From positions 5,166 through 69,165 of the forward strand of contig NZ_DAOLAJ010000005.1 in the NCBI RefSeq assembly GCF_035325185.1: 64,000 bases of DNA, in the 5' to 3' direction. Each line of letters opens with the position of its first letter. Within the stretch, counting starts at the first letter, position 1. Position numbers and translations under genes: made by a program. The notes beneath the pieces are model-generated. The model made no database searches. It worked only from the letters and a program-made list of their open reading frames with translations, and was not told where the DNA came from. Origin of the DNA: Enterovirga sp. Its GTDB lineage: Bacteria > Pseudomonadota > Alphaproteobacteria > Rhizobiales > Beijerinckiaceae. Below are positions 49,902-64,000 of the stretch, piece after piece.

Positions 49902-52900
49902 TTATCCCCCGGCTTCGTGGGCGGGGCGGGCCGAAGCGGCAGAGCGCGGGTGGCCGGATTCGCTCCCGCCTTCCGTCTGGGCGGGAAAGGGCGACAGGCG
50001 CGAGAACCTGCGCAGCCCTGACTGGACGCGGTCGGATGCCTCTCCCGTCAGCTTGAGCGTCGCCGGCACGAAGACGAGCGAGAGGATCGTCGAGAACAGA
50101 AGCCCGCCGATCACCGTGATGGCCATCGGCGCGCGAAACTCGCCCCCGGCGCCGATCGCGAGCGCGCTCGGGATCATGCCCGCGGCCATGGCGATCGTCG
50201 TCATGACGATCGGGCGGGCGCGCTTTCGGCCGGCATCGATGATGGCGGCGTCGCGCGGCACGCCGTCCCGCATCGATTCCACCGCGAAATCGACCAGCAT
50301 GATCGCATTCTTGGTCACGATGCCCATCAGCATCAGGAGGCCGATGAAGACCGGTGTCGTGAGCTGGTTCCCGGTCAGGAGGAGCGCGCCGACGGCGCCC
50401 CCGATCGAGATCGGCAGCGAGATCAGGATCACGAGCGGCTGGAGGAAGCTGCCGAACAGCAGCACGAGAACCGCATAGACCACCATCAGCCCGAGGGTCA
50501 TCGCGTGGACGAAGCCGTCCGCGAGTTCGTTCAGGTTCTCGGCGTCGCCCGACTGGCTGAGCGTGACGCCCTTGGGAATGTTGCGGACGATGGGGAGGTC
50601 CTGGATCGTCTTCAGCACGTCCCCGAGCGCCGCATAGCCGACGAGATCGGCCTCGACCGTCGCCTGGCGCTGCCGGTCGTAGCGCGCGATATTGGCCGGC
50701 CCGAGATCCGGCCGGATGTCGGCGACGACGCTGAGCGGCACCGTCCTCGGCCCCCCGGCCATGGGGACCTTCAGGTCCTTCAGCGCCTCGAGATTGCCGC
50801 GGGCATCGTCGTTGAGCTGGACCCGGATCGGGACGAGCGTGTCGCCGATGCTGAACTTCGCGAGCGCCTGGGGAGAGTCGCCGATCGTGGCGACCGAGAT
50901 GGTCTCGGAGATCGCGCTCGCGGTCACCCCGAGCCGGGCGGCGAGATCCTTGCGCGGGCGGATGCGCAGCTCCGGCCGGTCGAGCGTCGCGCTGGAGACG
51001 ACGTTGCTGAGCGTCGGAAGCCCGCGCATCTGGCTCGCCAACTCGTTCGCGAAGCCCGAGACCGCCTCCGGCACGTCGCCCGTCACCACGAGCGAGACCG
51101 CTCGCATGCCCAGTTCGTCGAGCAGCCAGTAGCGGATATCGGGGATGCGCTGGAGGCGCCGCTCGATCTCCTGCTCCAGCTCGCGCTGGCTGAGCTTGCG
51201 CTCCTTCTTGTCGGTGAAGTTGACGACCATGGTGGCGCGCCGGACATCCACGTTGCCCTGCGGCGAGCGCCCCCCGTCGACGAAGATGCTGCGGACCTGC
51301 GGGATGCCGCGCAGGTCGCGCGCGATCGCGTCGGTGACCGCCTGGGTGTCGCTCGCCTGCGAGCCGGGCGACAGCTCGATCGAGATCAGCGTCCGGGCGG
51401 TGTCCGATCGCGGCATGAAGCCCTTGGGAAGCAGCATCATGCTGAAGATCGAGCCCCCGAGCACGCTCATTCCGACGAGGAAGGTCAGCACGTAATGCCT
51501 GACCGAGAAGGTCACGAGGCGCGTGTAGAGGCGCTCGATCCGTCCGGGCGGCTTTTCCGGGCTGAGGTCCTGCTTGAGCAGATAGGCGGCGAGCATCGGC
51601 GTCACGAGCCGTGCGGCCAGAAGCGAGAAGAAGACCAGAACCGCGACCGTGATGCCGAACTGCTTGAAGAACTGGCCGACGATGCCGGGCATGAAGCTCG
51701 CCGGGACGAAGATGGCGATGATGGTGAGGCTGATCGCGATCACGGCGAGCCCGATCTCGTCCGCCGCGTCGATGGCCGCCTGGTAGGGCGACTTGCCCAT
51801 GCGGATATGGCGGGCGATGTTCTCGATCTCGACGATGGAATCGTCGACCAGGATGCCCGTGGACAGCGTGACCGCGAGGAAGCTCACCGAGTTCAGCGAG
51901 AAGCCCAGCAGGTCCATGACCCAGAAGGCGGGGAAGATCGACAGCGGCAGCGAGATCACGACGATGAGCGTCGCCCGGATGTTCCGCAGGAACAGGAAGA
52001 CGATGAGTACCGCCAGCAGCGCACCCTCGAACAGGGTGTCGACCGTCGCCTTGTAGTTGCCGAGCGTATGGTCGACCTGGGTCGAGATCAGCACGAGCTG
52101 GATGTCCGGATGGTCGGCGTTCAGCCTGTCGACGGTGGCCTTGACGGCCTGGCCGACGGCGACGTCGCTCGCGCCCCGCGAGCGCTTGATGTTGAAGGCG
52201 ACGACCGGCTTCCCATCGAGGCTCGCGAAGGTGCGCCTGTCGGCGACCGTGTCGATCACGGTGCCGAGATCCTTGAGCTGCACCTCCCCGCCGCTCGCGA
52301 GGCCGAGCATCGTGCCCGCCAGATCCTCGAGCGAGCGGGCGCCGCCGAGGGTGCGGATCGCATGGTCGCGCCCGCCGAGGGAGGCGCGCCCGCCCGCCAC
52401 ATCCGCGTTGATGGCGCGCAGCCGCCGGCTGACGTCGATGGTGGTGAGGCCGTAGGCGTCGAGGCGGTCGGGATCGAGCGAGACGAGAATTTCCCGATCC
52501 GTCCCGCCGACGGTCTCGACCTCGGCGACCCCGCGGATTCCCTGGATCTCCCGCGTGACGACATTCCTCACATAGGCGGAGAGGTCCTCGGCCGTCTTGT
52601 CGGTTCCGACCGCCGCGTAGCTGAGGATCGGAAGGCCCGCGACCTCGACGCGCTGGATCAGGGGCTCCTGGGAGAGCTGGGGCAGGCTGGACCGGATGCG
52701 GGTGACCCCATCCTTGACGTCGTTCAGCGCGCGATCGGTATTGGTCTCGATACGGAACTCGACCGTCGTCAGGGACACGCCGTCGTTCACGACCGAGGAG
52801 ATGTGGCGGATGCCTTCGATGCCGGCGAGTCCGTCCTCGATCGTGCGGGTCACCTCCCTCTCGATCTCGGCCGGTCCCGCGCCGAACTGCGTCACCAGCA

Positions 52901-53045
52901 CCGTGATCACCGGGATATCGGCGTTCGGCATGTTCGTGACGGGCAGGCGCGAGAAGCTGAGCCAGCCCAAGGCGAGCAGGATCAGCGAGATGAGGATCGG
53001 AGGAAGCGGACGCCTGATCGACCAGGTGGACACGTTCAACGACAT
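49902..53045 (-). CDS. RND efflux permease (AcrB/MdtB-like)
   Basis: WSIRRPLP, GILVDDSIVEIEN, GIVTKNAIMLVD, RARPIVMTT. Confidence 0.95.
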   Translation of the reverse strand: MSLNVSTWSIRRPLPPILISLILLALGWLSFSRLPVTNMPNADIPVITVLVTQFGAGPAEIEREVTRTIEDGLAGIEGIRHISSVVNDGVSLTTVEFRIETNTDRALNDVKDGVTRIRSSLPQLSQEPLIQRVEVAGLPILSYAAVGTDKTAEDLSAYVRNVVTREIQGIRGVAEVETVGGTDREILVSLDPDRLDAYGLTTIDVSRRLRAINADVAGGRASLGGRDHAIRTLGGARSLEDLAGTMLGLASGGEVQLKDLGTVIDTVADRRTFASLDGKPVVAFNIKRSRGASDVAVGQAVKATVDRLNADHPDIQLVLISTQVDHTLGNYKATVDTLFEGALLAVLIVFLFLRNIRATLIVVISLPLSIFPAFWVMDLLGFSLNSVSFLAVTLSTGILVDDSIVEIENIARHIRMGKSPYQAAIDAADEIGLAVIAISLTIIAIFVPASFMPGIVGQFFKQFGITVAVLVFFSLLAARLVTPMLAAYLLKQDLSPEKPPGRIERLYTRLVTFSVRHYVLTFLVGMSVLGGSIFSMMLLPKGFMPRSDTARTLISIELSPGSQASDTQAVTDAIARDLRGIPQVRSIFVDGGRSPQGNVDVRRATMVVNFTDKKERKLSQRELEQEIERRLQRIPDIRYWLLDELGMRAVSLVVTGDVPEAVSGFANELASQMRGLPTLSNVVSSATLDRPELRIRPRKDLAARLGVTASAISETISVATIGDSPQALAKFSIGDTLVPIRVQLNDDARGNLEALKDLKVPMAGGPRTVPLSVVADIRPDLGPANIARYDRQRQATVEADLVGYAALGDVLKTIQDLPIVRNIPKGVTLSQSGDAENLNELADGFVHAMTLGLMVVYAVLVLLFGSFLQPLVILISLPISIGGAVGALLLTGNQLTTPVFIGLLMLMGIVTKNAIMLVDFAVESMRDGVPRDAAIIDAGRKRARPIVMTTIAMAAGMIPSALAIGAGGEFRAPMAITVIGGLLFSTILSLVFVPATLKLTGEASDRVQSGLRRFSRLSPFPAQTEGGSESGHPRSAASARPAHEAGG

Positions 53046-53061
53046 GGACGCTCCGATCCGC

Positions 53062-53166
53062 CTAGAGCATGATCCGAAAAAGTGGATCCCGGTTTTTCGA
53101 AAAGATCATGCTCGAACAAAAGGCTGGAGCGTGATGGCGATTCAGCGAAGCGCCATCACGCTCCAG
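53062..53166. repeat. Two-hairpin Rhizobiales-type intergenic repeat (CTAGAGCATGATC...)
   Basis: IRs GAGCATGATC/GATCATGCTC and CTGGAGCGTGATGGCG/CGCCATCACGCTCCAG. Confidence 0.75.
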
Positions 53167-53185
53167 ATTCGGGAGGGGAGGCCCG

Positions 53186-54103
53186 TCACAGAGCACCCGC
53201 CGCGTTCGCGATGACCCCCTCGCCCTCGGAGAGGCCAGAGCGGATCTCCACGAATTCGCTCGACGACAGGCCGATCTCCACGCGGCGGGCCTCGGGCTTT
53301 CCGTTCCTCACCACGAGGACGGAAGTGGTGTTGTTCTGGCGCACGATCGACGTCTTCGGCACGCTCGGGCCGCAGCTTTCGGTCGTGTCGACCGTGCCCC
53401 GCCCGAACATGCCCGGCCGCAGCCCGGAGCCGGCGGGAAGCGCGAGGCGCGCACGCGCGAACTGGGTGCGGGCATCGATCTCGGCCGGCGGCACCCGGAC
53501 CGTCGTCCCAACCTCCGACCCGTCCCCAAGGAGGATCCTGGCGCCCCCGCCCGCCTTGACCCGCGCGGCATAGGCCCCGGGGATATCGACGACGAGATCG
53601 AGGTCGCGGTCCGTGCCGATGCGCAGGAGGGGCTCGCGCGCGGTGGCGAGCGCGCCGAGACGCGCCGTGCTCGCCGATACGACGCCCGCGGCAGGCGCCT
53701 TGAGGACGATGACGGGCGGACGGGCGCGCGCCGCCGCGGCCTCCGCAGATCCCGCGCCCCCCGGCGGGGTGGCACCCCCCGGCGGGGAGGGGAACGCGGC
53801 TTCGAGGCGGATCAGATCCTGGCCGGCCGCGACCGTATCGCCCTCATGGACCAGGATCGCCCCGATCCGAAACCCGTCGAGCCCCATCACGAAAGCCTCG
53901 GCCCGCTGGGCGAGAAAGCCCGAGACGCGCACGTTGTCCACGAAACAGCGCCTTTGCACCTGCACCGTCGAGGTCGAGCCGAAGGCCGAGGGCAGGTCGA
54001 TCGCCGCCGCAGGACCGGCCATCGCCGCGCAGGCCGCCGCCAGCGCAAGGCACGGGAGAATCGTCCTCCCGCGCGGTCCCGGATCGTGGGCTGGCGCGGC
54101 CAC
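53186..54103 (-). CDS. RND periplasmic adaptor (MFP), lacking the alpha-hairpin
   Basis: Lipoyl halves ILVHEGDTVAAGQDL and LKAPAAGVV are joined by a short PG/A linker; LRPGMFG; GLSEGEGVI. Confidence 0.82.
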   Translation of the reverse strand: MAAPAHDPGPRGRTILPCLALAAACAAMAGPAAAIDLPSAFGSTSTVQVQRRCFVDNVRVSGFLAQRAEAFVMGLDGFRIGAILVHEGDTVAAGQDLIRLEAAFPSPPGGATPPGGAGSAEAAAARARPPVIVLKAPAAGVVSASTARLGALATAREPLLRIGTDRDLDLVVDIPGAYAARVKAGGGARILLGDGSEVGTTVRVPPAEIDARTQFARARLALPAGSGLRPGMFGRGTVDTTESCGPSVPKTSIVRQNNTTSVLVVRNGKPEARRVEIGLSSSEFVEIRSGLSEGEGVIANAAGAL

Positions 54104-56617: not shown

Positions 56618-58489
56618 CTACCTGTCGGCATCCGGACGGCTGTCGGGCATGCTCAGCCTGATGATGATCCGGCGGATCAGCACGAGCACCATCGTGATCG
56701 CGACGAGCTGCACCCAGCCGAACGACGTGAAGCGGGAGATGACATGGTCCCAGTCGATCGTGTGGCCGAACCATCTTTTCGCGATGCTGTCGGAGAGCAC
56801 CGCGATGCCGAGAACGGCCGTGACCAGATAGCCCAGGCGCATGAGCAGGCGCACGATATACGCGATCTTGCCGACCACGGCCCTGAACTGGAGGATCGGC
56901 TCCTCGACATTGCGCTGCACCTTGAACATGAACTGGCTCGCGAGGTCTCCCAGTTCCTCCAATGCCAGGTAATCGGCATCCGTCGGCCCCGTCAGGCGCT
57001 CGCGCAGGCGCCGGCGCATCCGGTGGCGCGCCTCCCGCGAGATCTGGCGCAGGAAGGCCCGGTATTCCTGCGCCACGTCCAGCTCCTTGTTGAGCCTGTT
57101 GACGATGGCGTCGTAGGAGAAGGCGGCGCGAAAATACTGGATCGTCTCGAAGCTCATGGGCATCTGGTATTGCTGCGCCACCTCCATCGTCCGGATCCAG
57201 ATCTGGACCATGCTGCGCTCCCACCATTCGGCGTCGCGGCTCTTCTGCGTGTAGACCCAGTCGGCATAGACCTTCGTCAGCTCCCGCCGGATCGACTCGA
57301 CGTCGATCGGCGGCAGCGGGCCGGCGAGGCCGAGGGAGGCGTTCACCATCCGGCTGATGTCGCCCCGGATCATGTGGTGGGACAGTTCCCGGAAGGTCTT
57401 GCGGCTCTGCGTCGAGAAGCGGCCGACCGCGCCGAAATCGATGAAGCAGATGCAGTTGTTCGGCATGACCACCAGGTTCGCCGGATGCGGGTCGGCGTGA
57501 TAGAACGGCTCCTGGTGGATCTCCCGGTTCATCGCCAGCATGAGGTTGCTGGCGAGGGATTTCGGCTCGATGCCCTGCTCGCGGATCTTGGCCAGGAACT
57601 CCCGGTCGTCGTGCTCGACGGCGGCCATGATCTCCCACATCCACACGCCGGAGACGAACTCGCTGACCATCACCTCCTCGGAGCAATGCGGGAAGTAGAT
57701 CTTCGGCGCGGTGACGTTGGCCTTGCGGCGTTCCGCCCGCCGGCGGAAGAGGTCGGTGTAGCGGGCCTCGGTGCGGAAGTTCAGCTCCCGGAAGAGGATG
57801 GATTGCAGGTCCTGCCGGAAGCTGCGGGTCGTGCCCGGCGTGATGATGGTGAGCGTTTCCGCGAGCACCAGCAGCCAGTCCAGCGCGCGCAGATCCGCCG
57901 CGATGAGGGGCCCGATCCCGGGACGCCGCACCTTCACCGCCACCCGCTCGCCGCTGTGGAGCCGCGCCTGGTACACGCAGGAGATCGAGGCCGAGCCGAT
58001 GGGGTCCGGGTCGAACGCCTCGAAGACGTCCTCGAGCTTCTTGCCCAGGCTGCGCTCGACGATGGCGATCGCGTCGGCCGTCGGGAAAGGCGGCGACTGG
58101 TCGAGCATCCGGCTCAGCTCGGCGCAATAGGCATAGGGAATGACGTCGGCGCGGATCGACAATTGCTGGCCGAATTTCGCGAAGGTGCCGCCGGCCTCCT
58201 CGAAGATGCGGCGCAGCCGCTTGGCCCGGCGCTCCTCGCTGTCGCGCCGCCTCAGGACGTCGCGGAGATTGCCGTAGTAGAAGCGCAGGGCGCCCCAGAG
58301 CCAGACCAGCAGCCGCATCGCGGTGCTGAGGATGCTGGCCTCGAAATGGACCCGCCGGGCGCGCGGCAGCGCGACGCTGAGATTGGCGATCGAGGACGAG
58401 ACCTTCCGGCGCGGAAGCGGCCGGATGACGGGCAGGTCCTTGCGCGCGGGAGCGGGCAACTGCATCTCGGCCACCGAATGATCGTGCAT
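56618..58489 (-). CDS. ABC1/UbiB/AarF family atypical kinase
   Basis: TFAKFGQQLS.R.D, PIGSASISCVY.A, VAVKVRRPG, ELNFRTEA, YHADPHPAN, IDFG. Confidence 0.9.
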   Translation of the reverse strand: MHDHSVAEMQLPAPARKDLPVIRPLPRRKVSSSIANLSVALPRARRVHFEASILSTAMRLLVWLWGALRFYYGNLRDVLRRRDSEERRAKRLRRIFEEAGGTFAKFGQQLSIRADVIPYAYCAELSRMLDQSPPFPTADAIAIVERSLGKKLEDVFEAFDPDPIGSASISCVYQARLHSGERVAVKVRRPGIGPLIAADLRALDWLLVLAETLTIITPGTTRSFRQDLQSILFRELNFRTEARYTDLFRRRAERRKANVTAPKIYFPHCSEEVMVSEFVSGVWMWEIMAAVEHDDREFLAKIREQGIEPKSLASNLMLAMNREIHQEPFYHADPHPANLVVMPNNCICFIDFGAVGRFSTQSRKTFRELSHHMIRGDISRMVNASLGLAGPLPPIDVESIRRELTKVYADWVYTQKSRDAEWWERSMVQIWIRTMEVAQQYQMPMSFETIQYFRAAFSYDAIVNRLNKELDVAQEYRAFLRQISREARHRMRRRLRERLTGPTDADYLALEELGDLASQFMFKVQRNVEEPILQFRAVVGKIAYIVRLLMRLGYLVTAVLGIAVLSDSIAKRWFGHTIDWDHVISRFTSFGWVQLVAITMVLVLIRRIIIRLSMPDSRPDADR

Positions 58490-59009
58490 GACAAGCCAGT
58501 CCCGGTCAGAGAATTCGATCCGTATCCGTCCCTGGATCAGCGCATCCGGCCGCCGCGGCGGGAGGCGCGAGAGGCGTCCCCGGCAGTCGATTTCAGTTAG
58601 TCATAGATTCCCCATGAATTCAAACCGATCTCCGGCGGTCCCGCTTCCCGGCTCCGGCAGCGCTTCCCGCCTCGGATCGTGCGCCCGCGCGAAGCAGTTG
58701 CACAGACGAACGAAGTGTGTAACCTCCGCTCGCTGCTCTCGATCTTGTCGGCGTTAAGATATGATGGTCTCGGCTGAGAGCCAGGAGATTTTCTATAGCA
58801 GGTCTCTCAACTTGCAAGGGAAGGCGATCGCGCTGCCGGCCGGCAGCGCGAAGTTCTCGGGCAGAAAGGGCAAGTCGTTCCGCGAGCCGGCGATATGTGG
58901 GCCGGCGGTCCGGAGCGCGTTTTCCGCTGCGGCCCGGCGCCTCGGGCGCATCCTTCGCCTGAAAGGCTCCGCGCCCCGCCTGTGGCCGACCTATGGATGA
59001 ACGACGCTC

Positions 59010-62000
59010 ATGAAGCCCGATGACGTGATCGTCCTTGCGAGGGAAGGAGCCGGAGGGGCGCCGCTCGCCGTCGCCGGCGCCCGCGCGGGCGCCCGCGGCT
59101 TCCTCGACCTGGAGAATGCCGACGACGCCGATGCGGCCCTTGCGGCCCTCGCGACGATGGAACGCGGCGTGCCGGAAAGGTTCGGGATCAGGATCGGCGG
59201 CGGCGACCGGCCCCTGGCGCGGCGCCTCCTCGAAGCCCGGACAGGGAAATGGCGCGAGGTCCTGCTCGCCGCGGGAGACGACGACCTCGCCGGCTCGGCC
59301 GAGCTGTTCCGGCGGGCCGGGATCGAGGTCTTCGCCGAGGCGGCGAGCGTCGCGGAGGCGCAGCGCGCGCGGAGCGCCGGCATCGCGCGCATCGTCCTGA
59401 AAGGACACGAAGCCGGCGGCCGGGTCGGGGACGAGACGGCTTTCGTCCTGCTCCAGCATTGGCTGCACGCGGCGCAGGCATCGGGAGACGAGGCGGCCGC
59501 CGTCTGGGTCCAGGGCGGCGTCGGCCTTCACACGGCCGCCGCCTGCCTCGCCGGCGGCGCGGCGGGCGTCGTCCTCGACCATCAGCTTCTTCTCGCGCGG
59601 GAATCGCAGCTTCCCGAGAGCGAGCGCGAATGGATCGGCGCCTTCGACGGCAGCGACACGGCCTGCCTCGGCGAAAGCCTCGGCGCGCCCTATCGCTTCC
59701 ACCTCCAGCGCGGCGCGGCCGCGATCGAGGAACTGGGCGCGGTGGAGGATCGCCTGAGGCAGGGCGACTTCCCGGCGGAGGAGAGGCTGCGGCTCTGGCA
59801 CGAAGCCGTCCGCGAGCGGCTGGCGGCGGGCACCCTCCGGCCGCTCGGGCAGGATGCCTGTTTCGCGAGACCGCTCGCGCAGCGCTTCGTGACGGTAGCG
59901 GGCATCGTCCAGGCGATTTGCAGCCGGAGCCGCCGGCACCTGGAAGACGCGCGGCGCCTGCGGCCCCTGGCCGAGGGCGCGCCCCTCGCCGTCCGGCACG
60001 ACACGCGATATCCCCTCGTGCAGGGCCCCATGACGCGCGTCAGCGACACCGCGCCTTTCGCCGCCGCCGTCGCCGAGGGGGGCGCGCTGCCCTTCGTCGC
60101 GCTCGCGCTCCTGCGCAAGCCGGAGGTGGAGAAGCTCCTTGCCGGGACGCGCGACCTCGCCGCCGGCCGCTCCTGGGGCGCGGGCATCCTCGGCTTCGTC
60201 CCGGCCGAGCTGCGCCGCGAGCAGATCGAGGCCGTCCTGGCCTGCCGCCCGCCCTTCGCGCTGATCGCGGGAGGCCGGCCGGACCAGGCCCGCGAACTCG
60301 AGCAGCATGGCATCGTGACCTATCTGCACGTGCCCTCGCCCGGCCTCCTCAGGATGTTCCTGAGCGAGGGGAGCCGCCATTTCGTCTTCGAGGGGCGTGA
60401 ATGCGGCGGGCATGTCGGGCCGCGCACGAGCTTCGTCCTCTGGGAAACGATGTGCGAGATCCTTCTCGAGCACATCGAGAAGCACGGCCGGGGCGAGGAG
60501 CTGCAGGTGATCTTCGCCGGCGGCATCCACGATGCGCGCTCGGCCGCCATGGTCTCGGCCCTCTCCGCGGGCCTCGCCGCGCGGGGCGTCGCGGTCGGGG
60601 CGCTGATGGGCACGGCCTATCTCTTCACCGAGGAGGCTGTCTCCGGCGGTGCCGTCGTGCCGCGCTTCCAGCAGGAGGCTTTGGGCTGCGCCGAGACGGT
60701 GCTCCTGCAAACGAGCCGGGGCCACGCGATCCGCTGCATCGGGACGCCCTATTGCGAGGTCTTCGACAGCGAGAAGCAGAGGCTGCAAGCCGAAGGCAAG
60801 TCGCACGAGGAGATCGTCAAGGCGCTCGAATGGATGAATATGGGCCGGCTGCGGATCGCCTCCAAGGGAGTCGAGCGCGTCTCCGGCAACGGCACCGAGT
60901 CCGGGGGGGGCGCACCGCAGGCGGCCCTCGCCCCCTTGTCCGGCGACGAGCAGCATGCCCGCGGCATGTACATGATCGGCCAGGTGGCGGCCATGCACGA
61001 CGATGTGACGACCATCGCGCATCTGCACGAGGAGGTCTGCGGCGGCGCCCAGGCGATTCTCGACGCGGTGAAGGCGGACGGAAGCAGCCGGCCGGCCATC
61101 GCGCAGCCGCCTTGCGACATCGCGATCATCGGCATGTCCTGCTATTTTCCGCAGGCGGCCGACCGCACGCAATACTGGGAGAATATCCTAGGCAAGAAGA
61201 ACACCGTCACGGAAATCCCGGGCCGCCTCTGGGATTGGCGGCTCTATTACGATCCCGACCCGCGGGCGCCCGACAAGATCATCTCGAAATGGGGCGGGTT
61301 CCTCGACGACCTCGATTTCGATCCCCTGGCCTACGGCATCACGCCGGCCAGCATGACCTCCATCGATCCGCTCCAGCTCTACCTGCTCGAATCCGTCCGG
61401 CTCGCGATCGGCGATGCCGGCTATACGAGCCGCCCCTTCGACCGGGAGCGGACCTGCGCGATGCTCGGCATCGGCGGGGGCGCGAGCCCGCTGCCGGTCG
61501 CCTACGGCTTCCGCACCTCCCTGCCGCTGCTCGATTGCATCGAGGGGCTCGGGGTGACCTCCGGGGACGTGCTCGGGCGGATCGGCCCATACCTGCCGTC
61601 CTGGACGGAGGACAGCTTCCCCGGCATCCTGGCGAACGTGGCGGCCGGGCGCGTCGCCAACCGCTTCAATTTCGGCGGCACGAACTACGCCATCGACGCC
61701 GCCTGCGGCTCCTCGCTCGCCGCCGTGCAGGCCTGCATCCGCGAACTCGTCTCCGGGACGAGCGACGTGGCCTTCGCCATGGCCGCGGACATGGTGCAGA
61801 CGCCCTATGCCTATCTCGCCTTCAGCAAGACGCATGCGCTCTCCCCGCGCGGGCAATGCCGGCCCTTCGACGCGACGGGCGACGGCATCGTCCTCAGCGA
61901 GGGCATCTCGACGGTCGTCCTGAAGCGGCTCGCCGATGCGGAGCGCGACGGAGACCGGATCTACGCCGTGATCCGCGGCATCGGCTCCTCCAGCGACGGG

Positions 62001-64000
62001 CGGGCGAAGGGGCTCACCGCGCCCCTCGCCGAGGGGCAGTTGCGCGCCTTGCGCCGGGCCTATGAGGGCTCGGGCCTCTCGCCGGCGCGGGTCGAACTCG
62101 TCGAGGCCCACGGCACCGGCACGGTGGCGGGAGACGACACCGAGGCGAAGGCGCTGAACCAGGTGTTCCGCGAGGCCGGGGCCGAGCCGCGCTCCTGCGC
62201 CATCGGCTCGGTCAAGTCGATGATCGGGCACAGCAAATGCGCCGCCGGCATGGCCGGGCTGATCAAGACGTCGCTTGCCCTGCACCACAAGGTCCTGCCG
62301 CCGACCCTCGTCGAGACGCCCAATCCGAAATGCGGCTTCGGCGAAGGCCCGCTCTACTTGAACGGCGAGGCGCGCCCCTGGATCAAGGGCTCCGGCGAGA
62401 CACGCTGCGCGGGCGTCAGCGCCTTCGGCTTCGGCGGCACCAATTTCCACGTCGTGCTGGAGGAATATGAAGGCGCGATCGGGCAGGAGGCGGCGGCCTG
62501 CCTTGCGCATTGGCCGGCCGATCTTCTCGTCTGGCGCCGGCCGACACCCGCCGCGATCCTGGCGGAGGTCGAGCAATGCCTCGACGGGATCGGGCGCGGC
62601 GCGACGCCCGATCCCGGCGATCTCGCCTTGTCGCTCTGGAAGGCCGATCGCGGCGAGACGGCGCAGCCCGTGCTCGCGATCGTCGCCACCTCCCTCGACG
62701 ACCTGAAGGACAAGCTCGCCGTCGCCCGCGACGGCCTGCGCGCCGGCTCATCGAGCCTGCGCGATCCGCGCGGCGTCTATTTCGCCGCCGATCCCGCCGC
62801 GCGCTCCGGCAAGGTCGCGTTCCTGTTCCCCGGCCAGGGCTCGCAATATCCCGACATGCTGGCGCAGCTGGCCATCGCCTTCCCGGAGGTGCGCCGCTCC
62901 TTCGACGAGGCCGAGAGCCGGCTCGCCGGCCTCCTGGAGCAGCCGCTCGGCCGCTTCGTCTTCCCGCCGACCGCCTTCACGCCCGCGGAGGAGGAACAGG
63001 CGAGGACCGCCCTGACGCGGACCGAGGTGGCCCAGCCCGCGATGGGCGCTGCCGATCTCGGCATGTTCCGCCTGCTCACGGAACTGGGGCTGGAGCCGGA
63101 TTTCCTCGCCGGGCACAGCTACGGCGACTACGTCGCCCTCTGCGCCGCGGGCGCGCTCGACGAGCGGGACCTGCCCCGGCTCTCGCACCGGCGCGGCCGG
63201 GTCATCGTCGAGGCGAGCGCGGAATCGCCGGGCGGCATGGTGGCCTTCGACGCGCCCGCCGCGGCCGTCGAGGAGGCCATCGCCGGCACCGGCGCCACGG
63301 TGGCGAACGAGAACTCCCCCCGCCAGACCGTCGTCTCGGGAACGCCCGAGAGCCTGGAGGCCGCGCTCGCCCAGGCGAAGGAGCGCAAGATCGCGGGCCA
63401 CAGGATCAACGTCTCGCGCGGCTTCCACTCGCCGCTCGTGGCCGGCGCCCGCGAGCCCCTGGCGGAAGCTCTCGCGCAGGCGCGCTTCGCGGCGCCCCGC
63501 CGCCCGGTCTTCTCCAACACCACGGCGGCGCCCTATCCCGGCGATCCCGCCGTGATCGCCGATCTCCTGGCCGAGCACCTCGTCGCGCCGGTGCGCTTCC
63601 AGGACGAGATCGTCGCGATGCACGAGGCCGGGGCGCGCGTCTTCGTCGAGGTCGGGCCGCAGGCGGTGCTGACCGGGCTCGTCCACCAGATCCTCGGCGA
63701 GAAGCCCTTCGTCGCGCTCGCCTCCGACATCAAGGGCCGGCCGGGCCTCCTCCAGCTCCAGCACCTGCTCGGGCAGCTCCTCGTCTGCGGCCTTCCCGTC
63801 CGGCTCGACCGGCTCCATGCCGGGCGCGGGCTGCGCCGGCTCGACCTCGCCGATCTCGTCGAGGCGACCCGCAAGCCGAAGCCCTCGCCGACCGGCTGGG
63901 TCATCAACAGCGTGCGGGTGCGCCCCACCGGGGCGCCGGAGCCTTTCGTCCTCGGCGCCAGGTCGCCGGAGCCGGCATCTTCGGCATCCCAGGCGAACGG
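59010..64000 (+). CDS. Type I polyketide/fatty-acid synthase (NMO-like x2, KS, AT, ...), 3' truncated by window edge
   Basis: Translated by hand; absent from the ORF track because there is no stop in the window. One frame from ATG 59010 contains KGHEAGGR, PLVQGPM, EGRECGGH, IAIIGMSC, DAACGSSL, EAHGTGT, KSMIGH, FPGQGSQY, GHSYG, GFHS. Confidence 0.92.
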   Translation, partial: MKPDDVIVLAREGAGGAPLAVAGARAGARGFLDLENADDADAALAALATMERGVPERFGIRIGGGDRPLARRLLEARTGKWREVLLAAGDDDLAGSAELFRRAGIEVFAEAASVAEAQRARSAGIARIVLKGHEAGGRVGDETAFVLLQHWLHAAQASGDEAAAVWVQGGVGLHTAAACLAGGAAGVVLDHQLLLARESQLPESEREWIGAFDGSDTACLGESLGAPYRFHLQRGAAAIEELGAVEDRLRQGDFPAEERLRLWHEAVRERLAAGTLRPLGQDACFARPLAQRFVTVAGIVQAICSRSRRHLEDARRLRPLAEGAPLAVRHDTRYPLVQGPMTRVSDTAPFAAAVAEGGALPFVALALLRKPEVEKLLAGTRDLAAGRSWGAGILGFVPAELRREQIEAVLACRPPFALIAGGRPDQARELEQHGIVTYLHVPSPGLLRMFLSEGSRHFVFEGRECGGHVGPRTSFVLWETMCEILLEHIEKHGRGEELQVIFAGGIHDARSAAMVSALSAGLAARGVAVGALMGTAYLFTEEAVSGGAVVPRFQQEALGCAETVLLQTSRGHAIRCIGTPYCEVFDSEKQRLQAEGKSHEEIVKALEWMNMGRLRIASKGVERVSGNGTESGGGAPQAALAPLSGDEQHARGMYMIGQVAAMHDDVTTIAHLHEEVCGGAQAILDAVKADGSSRPAIAQPPCDIAIIGMSCYFPQAADRTQYWENILGKKNTVTEIPGRLWDWRLYYDPDPRAPDKIISKWGGFLDDLDFDPLAYGITPASMTSIDPLQLYLLESVRLAIGDAGYTSRPFDRERTCAMLGIGGGASPLPVAYGFRTSLPLLDCIEGLGVTSGDVLGRIGPYLPSWTEDSFPGILANVAAGRVANRFNFGGTNYAIDAACGSSLAAVQACIRELVSGTSDVAFAMAADMVQTPYAYLAFSKTHALSPRGQCRPFDATGDGIVLSEGISTVVLKRLADAERDGDRIYAVIRGIGSSSDGRAKGLTAPLAEGQLRALRRAYEGSGLSPARVELVEAHGTGTVAGDDTEAKALNQVFREAGAEPRSCAIGSVKSMIGHSKCAAGMAGLIKTSLALHHKVLPPTLVETPNPKCGFGEGPLYLNGEARPWIKGSGETRCAGVSAFGFGGTNFHVVLEEYEGAIGQEAAACLAHWPADLLVWRRPTPAAILAEVEQCLDGIGRGATPDPGDLALSLWKADRGETAQPVLAIVATSLDDLKDKLAVARDGLRAGSSSLRDPRGVYFAADPAARSGKVAFLFPGQGSQYPDMLAQLAIAFPEVRRSFDEAESRLAGLLEQPLGRFVFPPTAFTPAEEEQARTALTRTEVAQPAMGAADLGMFRLLTELGLEPDFLAGHSYGDYVALCAAGALDERDLPRLSHRRGRVIVEASAESPGGMVAFDAPAAAVEEAIAGTGATVANENSPRQTVVSGTPESLEAALAQAKERKIAGHRINVSRGFHSPLVAGAREPLAEALAQARFAAPRRPVFSNTTAAPYPGDPAVIADLLAEHLVAPVRFQDEIVAMHEAGARVFVEVGPQAVLTGLVHQILGEKPFVALASDIKGRPGLLQLQHLLGQLLVCGLPVRLDRLHAGRGLRRLDLADLVEATRKPKPSPTGWVINSVRVRPTGAPEPFVLGARSPEPASSASQAN

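What the first reader, a model, noticed from the sequence alone, without database searches (positions are those of the whole stretch)
59010..64000. Type I PKS with two N-terminal NMO/FabK-like flavin barrels
About 700 aa ahead of the KS form two tandem nitronate-monooxygenase/FabK/PfaD-like domains. The first has KGHEAGGR (catalytic His replaced by Arg, probably dead). The second has EGRECGGH (intact). The KS triad (C, H, H) and AT (GHSYG, GFHS, malonyl-like) are intact. A cis-fused flavin enoyl reductase in front of KS-AT suggests an iterative, Pfa-like synthase for an unusual lipid; the product is unknown to me.
Basis: partly seen in the sequence, partly recalled or inferred. Interest (0 to 1): 0.7.

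Follow-up and report, generated by a model that had tools for sequence, protein, structure and literature searches.

The report
ArsA-like fatty acid megasynthase, variant operon
The gene encodes a relative of ArsA, the Azotobacter enzyme that builds very long saturated fatty chains, and it sits in an unstudied four-gene operon with no phenolic-lipid enzymes, so the enzyme type is known but its lipid product is not.

Summary
The ORF starting at 59010 opens with two FabK/NMO-like FMN barrels. D1 covers aa 1-325 and carries HEAGGR. D2 covers aa 330-690 and carries RECGGH. An intact KS and a malonyl-type AT follow.

The architecture is not new. The protein aligns end to end (40% identity) with Azotobacter vinelandii ArsA, the type I fatty acid synthase that makes C22-C26 acyl chains for alkylresorcinols. 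ArsA has the same tandem barrels, and its first barrel also lacks the catalytic His. The barrels are FabK-like, not PfaD-like.

The full protein is about 2469 aa: ER0-ER-KS-AT-ACP-KR. The operon continues past the window with three more genes:
- AT2-DH-PPTase-like, which is an ArsD homologue carrying an extra PfaB-like acyltransferase and a degenerate PPTase motif;
- a stand-alone ACP;
- an alpha/beta hydrolase.

No type III PKS was found in the operon or in the genome. A KS tree places the protein in a sister clade to true ArsA. That clade is common in Gemmataceae and patchy in this organism's own genus.

Likely function: iterative synthesis of a long saturated acyl chain that is handed off through AT2/ACP/hydrolase. 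The product has not been determined.

First-stage readers flagged the same tandem-barrel architecture in three other genomes. Verdict: a new variant of a known kind, of moderate interest.

The parts
59010..59984 (+). D1: the first FabK/NMO-like TIM barrel (aa 1-325), read as a pseudo-enoyl-reductase. Motif III is HEAGGR (Arg138, codon 59421-59423) where the catalytic His should be. Motif I is VLAREG, with no FMN-contacting Met.
   Evidence: FabK TIGR03151 E 6e-12. The family profile aligns it full-length to FabK structures at E 1e-25. The model has pLDDT around 90. The residue after GG is R/W/S/L in about 97% of 227 homologues.
59997..61079 (+). D2: the second FabK/NMO-like barrel (aa 330-690), the presumed active FMN enoyl-ACP reductase. 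Motif I is YPLVQGPMTRVSD. Motif III is FEGRECGGH (His468, codon 60411-60413).
   Evidence: Pfam NMO E 8.5e-16 and FabK E 7.5e-19. E461/G462/E464-H468 are invariant in 15 of 15 sequences. The roles of the motifs are taken from PMC13311796.
61116..62489 (+). Ketosynthase domain with its C-terminal extension (aa 703-1160). Cys899 (61704-61706), His1034 (62109-62111), His1074 (62229-62231).
   Evidence: PF00109 E 2e-61, PF02801 E 2e-39, PF16197. Codons checked.
62820..63698 (+). AT1 (aa 1271-1563), a malonyl-type acyltransferase with PGQGSQ, GHSYG (Ser1370, 63117-63119), Arg1395 (63192-63194) and GFHS.
   Evidence: PF00698 E 1e-36 and FabD TIGR00128 E 5e-55. Aligned with the AT of A. vinelandii ArsA.
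63699..64000 (+). Post-AT region running into a Pro/Ala-rich linker. The gene continues past the window end to a single ACP (Ser in LGVDSI, aa about 1827) and a KR (aa about 2167-2391). The full length is about 2469 aa.
   Evidence: Own contig L008 and the 99.7% identical twin P0002.
56618..58489 (-). Divergently transcribed ABC1/UbiB-family kinase. It is possibly part of the same acquired unit, but the association is unproven.
   Evidence: It is adjacent to the synthase in G005 (79% identity) and in L044 (85%). It was not found at E <= 1e-100 in the other 13 genomes of the genus.

Best explanation
This is the first gene of a four-gene operon encoding an ArsA-family iterative type I fatty acid synthase.

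Shown by sequence:
- Gene 1 (about 2469 aa) is ER0-ER-KS-AT-ACP-KR.
- Gene 2 (1140 aa) is AT2-DH-PPTase-like. Its last 550 aa are an ArsD homologue.
- Gene 3 (96 aa) is a free-standing ACP.
- Gene 4 (279 aa) is a Ser alpha/beta hydrolase.

Inferred cycle, by analogy with ArsA/ArsD, which make C22-C26 saturated acids from malonyl-CoA:
1. AT1 loads malonyl onto the integrated ACP.
2. KS condenses.
3. KR reduces the keto group.
4. The gene-2 DH dehydrates in trans.
5. The second barrel (FMN, His468) reduces the enoyl thioester.
6. Iteration gives a long, fully saturated chain.

Inferred role of the first barrel: it has lost the catalytic His and the motif-I Met but keeps its glycine loops and its fold. 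It most likely acts as a non-catalytic partner that stands in for the second subunit of the normally homodimeric FabK-type ER.

Inferred hand-off: no type III PKS is present to take the chain. AT2 has a Ser-His dyad but lacks the malonyl-binding Arg and Gln, as PfaB does. AT2 is proposed to move the finished acyl chain to the free ACP. The hydrolase would then release it or pass it on. Export to the envelope would use the RND/MFP system nearby (MacB-ABC in relatives).

The PPTase-like end of gene 2 reads GIALA where GxDxE is expected, so it is probably inactive. Another PPTase would then have to prime the ACPs.
For: ArsA family:
- End-to-end alignment with A. vinelandii ArsA (aa 19-2442 vs 17-2486, 40.4% identity, 1464 bits), which has the same tandem barrels (HESGGW / GECGGH).
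- The ars locus was read directly in A. vinelandii DJ and Beijerinckia mobilis: arsA, two type III PKS genes, then DH-PPTase.

Catalytic residues:
- KS, AT1, ACP, KR and DH residues are intact.
- Gene 2 aa 582-1134 align with the ArsD-like protein (hhalign probability 100, E 1e-58).
- The AT2 motifs are conserved in 9 of 9 homologues: PGEGxQ, GHSxGE, no Arg, PYHTP. The PfaB precedent is in PMC12895367.

Accessory genes:
- The free ACP matches PP-binding in 10 of 10 homologues and has an invariant Ser43.
- The hydrolase and the free ACP are present in ten loci of this sub-family (ours, L044, Frigoriglobus and seven Gemmataceae). Type III PKS genes are present in none of the sub-family loci tested and in both ars loci.
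- No type III PKS was found in the genome, which is 92.7% complete.

ER barrels:
- D1 and D2 have FabK folds and the didomain is confidently packed (pTM 0.92).
- ER domains act as dimers, and His is the proposed catalytic residue (PMC13311796).
- D1 averages 43% identity and D2 64% across the family, and both are retained in every member.
Against: - No product is known for this sub-family. Chain length and saturation are extrapolated from ArsA, which is only 40% identical and sits in the sister KS clade.
- The direction of AT2 is not determined: it could off-load product or load a starter onto the free ACP.
- The hydrolase belongs only to a generic alpha/beta family, with best hits PcaD/BioH-like and all below cut-off.
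- D1 keeps its phosphate-loop glycines and Glu134, so FMN binding or another activity cannot be excluded. A few family members, including B. mobilis, retain His in D1.
- I could not superpose the model on a FabK dimer, so the 'intramolecular pseudo-dimer' idea is untested.
- Only an AcpS-size PPTase (156-aa ORF) was found in the genome, so how the carrier domains are primed is open.
- The ArsA biochemistry papers (Funa 2006, Miyanaga 2008) were not held. Their content is cited second-hand from PMC3098273 and PMC4824345.
Confidence: 0.68

Rival explanations
1. It is a true Ars system. The fatty acyl chain is handed to type III PKSs encoded elsewhere, and the product is an alkylresorcinol or alkylpyrone.
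For: ArsA-like and ArsD-like proteins are both present. The genome is only 92.7% complete, so a type III PKS could be missing from the assembly.
Against: - No PF02797 match anywhere in the genome.
- No type III PKS in any locus of this sub-family that I tested, including a complete Frigoriglobus genome region. Both genuine ars loci have two.
- The KS falls in a separate, fully supported clade.
- The operon has its own off-loading parts: AT2, ACP and hydrolase.
Confidence: 0.07
2. It is a Pfa-type PUFA or polyene synthase that makes an unsaturated secondary lipid.
For: The best NCBIfam hit for the KS-AT and ACP-KR regions is PfaA TIGR02813 (715 and 279 bits). AT2 resembles PfaB in lacking the malonyl Arg.
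Against: - The scores are below the PfaA cut-off of 1010.
- There is a single ACP.
- There is no second KS/CLF gene and no FabA-type dehydratase/isomerase. The only DH is the PS-DH type.
- A cis ER is present for every cycle.
- The ER fold matches FabK (TM 0.83-0.88) far better than PfaD (about 0.5).
- The closest characterised relative makes saturated chains.
Confidence: 0.1
3. Both barrels are catalytic. D1 is a second flavin oxidoreductase that uses Arg or another residue. For example, it could be a dedicated NAD(P)H:FMN half-site, or an ER for a particular chain-length range.
For: D1 keeps E134, G136/G137, the GG(x)G loop and Q192 invariant in 15 of 15 sequences, and its fold is confidently predicted. 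His is retained in D1 of B. mobilis ArsA and a few others.
Against: - The proposed catalytic His is replaced by R, W, S, L or Y in about 97% of 227 homologues. There is no single conserved substitute.
- The motif-I Met that contacts FMN is absent in all.
- D1 evolves much faster than D2 (43% vs 64% identity).
Confidence: 0.15

Closest known systems
ArsA/ArsD type I fatty acid synthase of Azotobacter vinelandii (arsABCD; 'Type P' secondary lipid synthase of Shulse & Allen 2011, PMC3098273)
   Same: - Same domain order in one polypeptide of about 2500 aa: pseudo-ER, ER, KS, malonyl-AT, one ACP, KR.
- 40% identity end to end.
- A DH-PPTase-type partner protein.
- A lipid exporter gene is often next to the operon.
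   Different: - No arsB/arsC type III PKS genes.
- The partner protein carries an extra N-terminal acyltransferase, and its PPTase motif is degenerate.
- A free ACP and an alpha/beta hydrolase have been added.
- The KS lies in a sister clade.
- The product is unknown.
FabK (FMN-dependent enoyl-ACP reductase II) and related NMO-fold enzymes
   Same: Both N-terminal barrels have the FabK fold. D2 keeps motif I (GPM) and motif III (ECGGH).
   Different: Here the barrels are fused in tandem to a megasynthase instead of forming a free homodimer. D1 lacks the catalytic His and the motif-I Met.
Pfa PUFA synthase (PfaA/PfaB/PfaD)
   Same: The KS-AT and ACP-KR regions are PfaA-like. AT2 shares PfaB's loss of the malonyl Arg/Gln, and the PfaB precedent supports a role as terminal acyltransferase.
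   Different: - One ACP rather than several.
- No KS-CLF and no FabA-like DH.
- The ER is cis-fused and FabK-like, not a free PfaD.
- AT2 keeps GHSxG rather than PfaB's GYSxG.
Schizochytrium ERb/ERc heterodimer (PMC13311796)
   Same: Two different ER-fold domains pair with each other instead of forming a homodimer. This is a precedent for ER domains serving as dimerisation elements.
   Different: There, both ER domains keep the catalytic His and sit on different subunits. Here the two lie in tandem on one chain, and one has lost the His.

Membership tests
ArsA-type type I FAS (ars / Type P) | A single polypeptide of about 2500 aa with ER-KS-AT-ACP-KR and full-length homology to A. vinelandii ArsA | tested here: met
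   Domains. BLASTP 19-2442 vs 17-2486, 40.4% identity, 1464 bits.
ArsA-type type I FAS (ars / Type P) | An ArsD partner providing DH and an active Sfp-type PPTase | tested here: inconclusive
   The DH-PPTase-like region aligns with the ArsD-like protein (probability 100, E 1e-58). The DH motifs His618 and D808xxxH812 are invariant. The PPTase GxDxE motif reads GIALA and Pfam ACPS gives no hit. The motif is intact in only 2 of 9 sub-family members.
ArsA-type type I FAS (ars / Type P) | Two type III PKS genes (arsB, arsC) in the operon to receive the acyl chain | tested here: not met
   None in the operon, in the genome (92.7% complete), or in any related locus of this sub-family tested. Both ars loci have them.
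ArsA-type type I FAS (ars / Type P) | KS groups with A. vinelandii ArsA | tested here: not met
   FastTree of 60 KS regions shows two clades split with 100% local support, and ours is in the non-Ars clade. Caveat: the groups came from two top-120 hit lists.
ArsA-type type I FAS (ars / Type P) | Product is a C22-C26 saturated fatty acyl-ACP | not testable with these tools
   Needs biochemistry or lipidomics.
Pfa PUFA synthase | PfaA-level score, tandem ACPs, a KS-CLF subunit, FabA-like DH, and a free PfaD ER | tested here: not met
   TIGR02813 scores 715 bits against a cut-off of 1010. There is one ACP. The operon has no second KS and only a PS-DH. The ER is fused and FabK-like.
FabK/NMO FMN TIM-barrel enoyl reductase | TIM-barrel fold with motif I (xPMxG) and motif III (xE[AC]GGH, catalytic His) | tested here: met
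   This row refers to D2: QGPMTRVSD and RECGGH, invariant in 15 of 15. Fold.
FabK/NMO FMN TIM-barrel enoyl reductase | The same motifs in the first barrel (D1) | tested here: not met
   The fold is met. Motif I lacks Met and motif III has Arg138. Across 227 homologues His is present in only about 2%.
PfaB-like terminal acyltransferase (for AT2 of the next gene) | Ser-His dyad retained, malonyl-binding Arg and oxyanion Gln lost, Tyr in GYSxG, and a pseudo-KS in front | tested here: inconclusive
   The dyad is present and Arg/Gln are lost in 9 of 9. However, the motif is GHSxG rather than GYSxG, only a KS-AT linker remnant precedes it, and TIGR02816 scores 29 bits against a cut-off of 144.

The most novel reading that the evidence does not exclude
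This sister clade of ArsA defines an uncharacterised route to a very-long-chain envelope lipid, found in Gemmataceae and scattered in other phyla. In this reading, a megasynthase-bound chain is moved ACP-to-ACP by a PfaB-like acyltransferase fused to the dehydratase. The tandem N-terminal barrels would form an obligate intramolecular pseudo-dimer in which a dead FabK domain has become a structural or regulatory pseudoenzyme. If so, the product would be a new lipid class rather than an ArsA-type saturated acid.
Probability: 0.3. Interest if true: 0.6.

Novelty: new variant of a known kind. Interest (0 to 1): 0.42.

Why it matters
**Annotation.** The result turns an apparently exotic 'PKS with two flavin barrels' into something that can be named: an ArsA-family type I FAS. 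At present such genes are labelled 'type I PKS' or 'SDR family oxidoreductase'.

**Family scale.** The family is large. D1 alone finds 175 sequence clusters at E <= 1e-30. I found no paper in the held library that describes the pseudo-ER barrel or this operon variant.

**A testable hypothesis.** The sub-family found here swaps the type III PKS acceptors of the ars system for an acyltransferase, a free ACP and a hydrolase. This gives a concrete hypothesis for how iterative lipid megasynthases off-load their chains. It also points to an unknown lipid in culturable Planctomycetes such as Frigoriglobus.

**Pseudoenzyme case.** The dead/live ER pair is a clean natural case of pseudoenzyme retention inside a megasynthase.

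Tried and rejected
- **The search for related loci** on genome contigs with the N-terminal 697 aa returned only one locus, an Enterovirga sp. MAG. I used the genome search instead.
- **Planctomycetota sampling.** Sampling the phylum evenly found the gene in only 3 of 151 genomes, so 'ubiquitous in Planctomycetes' was rejected. It is concentrated in Gemmataceae (10 of 61) and is patchy there too.
- **Literature.** Searches for an ER-KS-AT architecture, for ArsA domain descriptions and for a planctomycete type I PKS lipid found nothing specific. The two primary ArsA papers are not held. I could not see Figure 1 of PMC3098273, so I cannot say whether its uncharacterised 'Type O' or 'Type J' equals this operon.
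- **Island borders.** I tried to define the borders of the acquired unit from flanking genes (ABC1 kinase, pseudo-caspase, YggS). The genus is too divergent and the assemblies too fragmented, so the result was inconclusive.
- **Possible second product.** I considered that the long reverse-strand ORFs (for example 1867 aa on L008) were genes. They have no Pfam match and are shadows of the high-GC coding strand.
Full report
**1. What is in the window**

An ATG at 59010 opens a frame that is still open at the window end, giving 1663 aa. Pfam and NCBIfam place the following:
- a KS at aa 703-1100
- a KS C-terminal extension
- an AT at aa 1271-1563
- NMO/FabK matches in the first 700 aa

Scanned separately, aa 1-330 hit NMO (E 1e-4) and FabK TIGR03151 (E 6e-12). 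Aa 331-697 hit NMO (E 8.5e-16) and FabK (E 7.5e-19).

I checked their codons:

| Residue | Window codon |
|---|---|
| D1 Arg138 | 59421-59423 |
| D2 His468 | 60411-60413 |
| KS Cys899 | 61704-61706 |
| AT Ser1370 | 63117-63119 |

**2. The rest of the gene and the operon**

The window is G000:C5:5166-69165. In the contig the gene runs into a 10-N scaffold gap at C5:69468-69477, with about 20 garbled codons after it. A 99.7% identical twin from a public assembly (P0002, 2469 aa) reads straight through the gap.

The full protein is D1-D2-KS-AT-ACP-KR. It has a single ACP (LGVDSI) and an intact KR (TGGARGIT, YAAGN).

Three genes follow directly downstream:
- **Gene 2 (1140 aa).** It has a KS-AT linker remnant, an acyltransferase (GHSLG), a PS-type dehydratase (invariant His618 and D808xxxH812) and a C-terminal Sfp-type PPTase-like domain.
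- **Gene 3 (96 aa).** A free-standing ACP. PP-binding matches 10 of 10 homologues, Ser43 is invariant, and the best PDB matches are ACPs, including the mycobacterial AcpM.
- **Gene 4 (279 aa).** An alpha/beta hydrolase with a GHSYG nucleophile elbow.

**3. Both barrels are real FabK-like domains**

A profile of 15 family members aligns D1 over nearly the whole length of FabK crystal structures at E about 1e-25. An AlphaFold model of aa 1-697 built on that alignment has pLDDT 88.8 and pTM 0.92. It shows two (beta/alpha) barrels. Foldseek ranks FabK structures first, with target TM 0.83-0.88. PfaD and trans-AT ER domains score only about 0.5.

The literature proposes the His of motif III (xEAGGH) as the catalytic residue in FabK and PfaD. 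The Met of motif I contacts FMN (PMC13311796).
- D2 keeps both (QGPMTRVSD, RECGGH), and they are invariant in 15 of 15 sequences.
- D1 has neither (LTPxG-type motif I, HEAGGR).
- In 227 homologues, the D1 residue after GG is R (169), W (25) or S (11), and only rarely H. D2 has H in 210.
- D1 is less conserved than D2 (43% vs 64% mean identity to ours). It still keeps its glycine loops.
- D1-like sequences form 175 clusters at E <= 1e-30 in a library of 1.84 billion representatives. In the 150 listed hits the match begins within about the first 50 residues in nearly all, apart from a few mostly short proteins where it lies further in.

**4. Identity of the family**

A relative in the same GTDB family carries the gene at 45% identity in the N-terminal region. 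That genome (G016) is Beijerinckia mobilis by its 100% match to P0124. There the gene sits in a textbook ars operon: megasynthase, two type III PKS genes, then a DH-PPTase gene.

The hit list for that protein includes 'Type I fatty acid synthase ArsA [Azotobacter vinelandii CA]' (P0206). I read the A. vinelandii DJ locus directly. It contains arsA (NMO...KR), arsB, arsC, arsD (PS-DH + ACPS), and then an ABC/MacB exporter.

Our protein aligns with ArsA over aa 19-2442 vs 17-2486 at 40.4% identity. ArsA has the same tandem barrels: HESGGW in D1 and GECGGH in D2. The cis-fused double barrel is therefore a family trait of a characterised enzyme, not a novelty of this window.

According to PMC3098273 and PMC4824345:
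- ArsA makes the C22-C26 fatty acyl moiety of the cyst alkylresorcinols.
- ArsD is described as the PPTase.
- The chain is passed directly to the type III PKSs (also PMC6274091).

**5. How this operon differs from ars**

*No type III PKS.* None was found in the genome, which is 92.7% complete. None is present in any of the related loci I tested, while both ars loci have two.

*Gene 2 is an ArsD with an extra acyltransferase.* Residues 582-1134 align with the ArsD-like protein (hhalign probability 100, E 1e-58). In front of this is AT2. AT2 keeps the Ser-His dyad. In 9 of 9 homologues it has lost the malonyl-binding Arg and carries PGEGxQ in place of PGQGSQ. AT1 and the ArsA AT keep all malonyl signatures. 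The same losses characterise PfaB, recently shown to be a long-chain terminal acyltransferase (PMC12895367).

*The PPTase motif is degenerate.* GxDxE reads GIALA here. It is intact in only 2 of 9 sub-family members, and one of those is detected by Pfam ACPS. The genome shows only one PF01648 match, a 156-aa ORF.

*Conserved accessory genes.* The free ACP and the hydrolase are conserved in ten loci of the sub-family: ours, L044, Frigoriglobus tundricola and seven Gemmataceae genomes.

*Separate KS clade.* A KS tree of 60 sequences splits our group from the ArsA group with full local support. The caveat is that the two groups come from two hit lists.

*Other variants exist.*
- One planctomycete fuses the DH to gene 1 and has an AT-PPTase gene.
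- Others have KS-AT-ACP-DH-PPTase as gene 2.

**6. Distribution**

The N-terminal region is found in:
- 1 of 14 other genomes of the organism's genus (the Enterovirga sp. MAG, 71%)
- 3 of 24 genomes in the family (two of these are weak single-barrel matches; only the B. mobilis ars gene is a full relative)
- 10 of 61 sampled Gemmataceae
- 3 of 151 evenly sampled Planctomycetota

This patchiness argues for horizontal spread and against a housekeeping role.

The closest full-length relative is P0003 (73%), on a 237-kb metagenome contig. It has the same four genes plus a Rieske oxygenase. Its ABC1 kinase and RND/MFP genes are 84-85% identical to those flanking our operon.

**7. Mechanism**

*Shown:* the domain content, the intact catalytic residues, the homology to ArsA/ArsD, and the absence of type III PKS.

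*Inferred from ArsA biochemistry:* iterative, fully reducing elongation from malonyl-CoA to a long saturated chain.

*Inferred from motif loss and the PfaB precedent:* AT2 as the off-loading enzyme, passing the chain to the free ACP. It appears exactly where the type III PKS acceptors are absent.

*Inferred from ER domains acting as dimers (PMC13311796) and the confident didomain packing:* D1 as a non-catalytic partner of D2.

*Open questions:* chain length, the final acceptor, the role of the hydrolase, and which PPTase primes the carriers.

**8. Verdict**

The operon is a new variant of a known kind with an unknown product. First-stage readers flagged the same tandem-barrel architecture in three other genomes of this scan, which fits a large family.

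Noticed in passing
L008:5294-5303 (G000:C5:69468-69477, just past the window end): A 10-N scaffold gap lies inside the megasynthase gene, in the Pro/Ala-rich linker before the ACP. About 20 codons after the gap do not match the 99.7% identical twin P0002. Automatic annotation of this assembly would split or truncate the gene.
   Followed up: yes
window 56618-58489 (-): An ABC1/UbiB-family kinase is transcribed divergently from the synthase. The same pairing occurs in the Enterovirga MAG G005 (79% identity) and on metagenome contig L044 (85%). The gene was not found at E <= 1e-100 in the other 13 genomes of the genus.
   Followed up: partly
window 49902-54103 (-) and L044:23583-27500: The RND (ACR_tran/MMPL) plus MFP pair upstream of our operon is 84% identical to a pair lying immediately downstream of the homologous operon on contig L044. 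In Gemmataceae and in both ars loci, a MacB/FtsX-ABC exporter takes that place instead. This suggests the exporters serve the lipid product.
   Followed up: partly
L008:12669-13517 (+): A YggS-family PLP protein lies just after the operon. It is a second copy in this genome (the other is on C30). It is only 39-56% identical to the YggS genes of the other genomes in the genus, so the region downstream also looks like accessory DNA.
   Followed up: partly
L031:9525-17801 (-) (Beijerinckia mobilis) vs L045:8001-15512 (A. vinelandii): The first barrel of B. mobilis ArsA still reads HEAGGH, while A. vinelandii ArsA reads HESGGW. Loss of the His in D1 is therefore not complete across the family.
   Followed up: partly
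L032:6591-17290 (-), L042:4-13662, L043:31-12164: Other domain shuffles occur in the same family. One has gene 1 with a fused DH plus an AT-PPTase gene, next to polysaccharide-export and phosphodiesterase genes. In L042 the second gene is KS-AT-ACP-DH-PPTase, and in L043 it has KS-AT.
   Followed up: partly
L016:7358-8548 (-), L044:22394-23572, L039:12730-13827: A Rieske/ring-hydroxylating oxygenase (46% identical between loci) recurs next to the operon in 3 of the related loci. It is absent from ours and could be a tailoring hydroxylase.
   Followed up: no
window 58761-59000 (+): A 79-aa ORF was called just upstream of the synthase in the twin contig (L015:9752-9991). It has no NCBIfam match and no counterpart in the Frigoriglobus locus, so it is probably not a gene.
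   Followed up: partly
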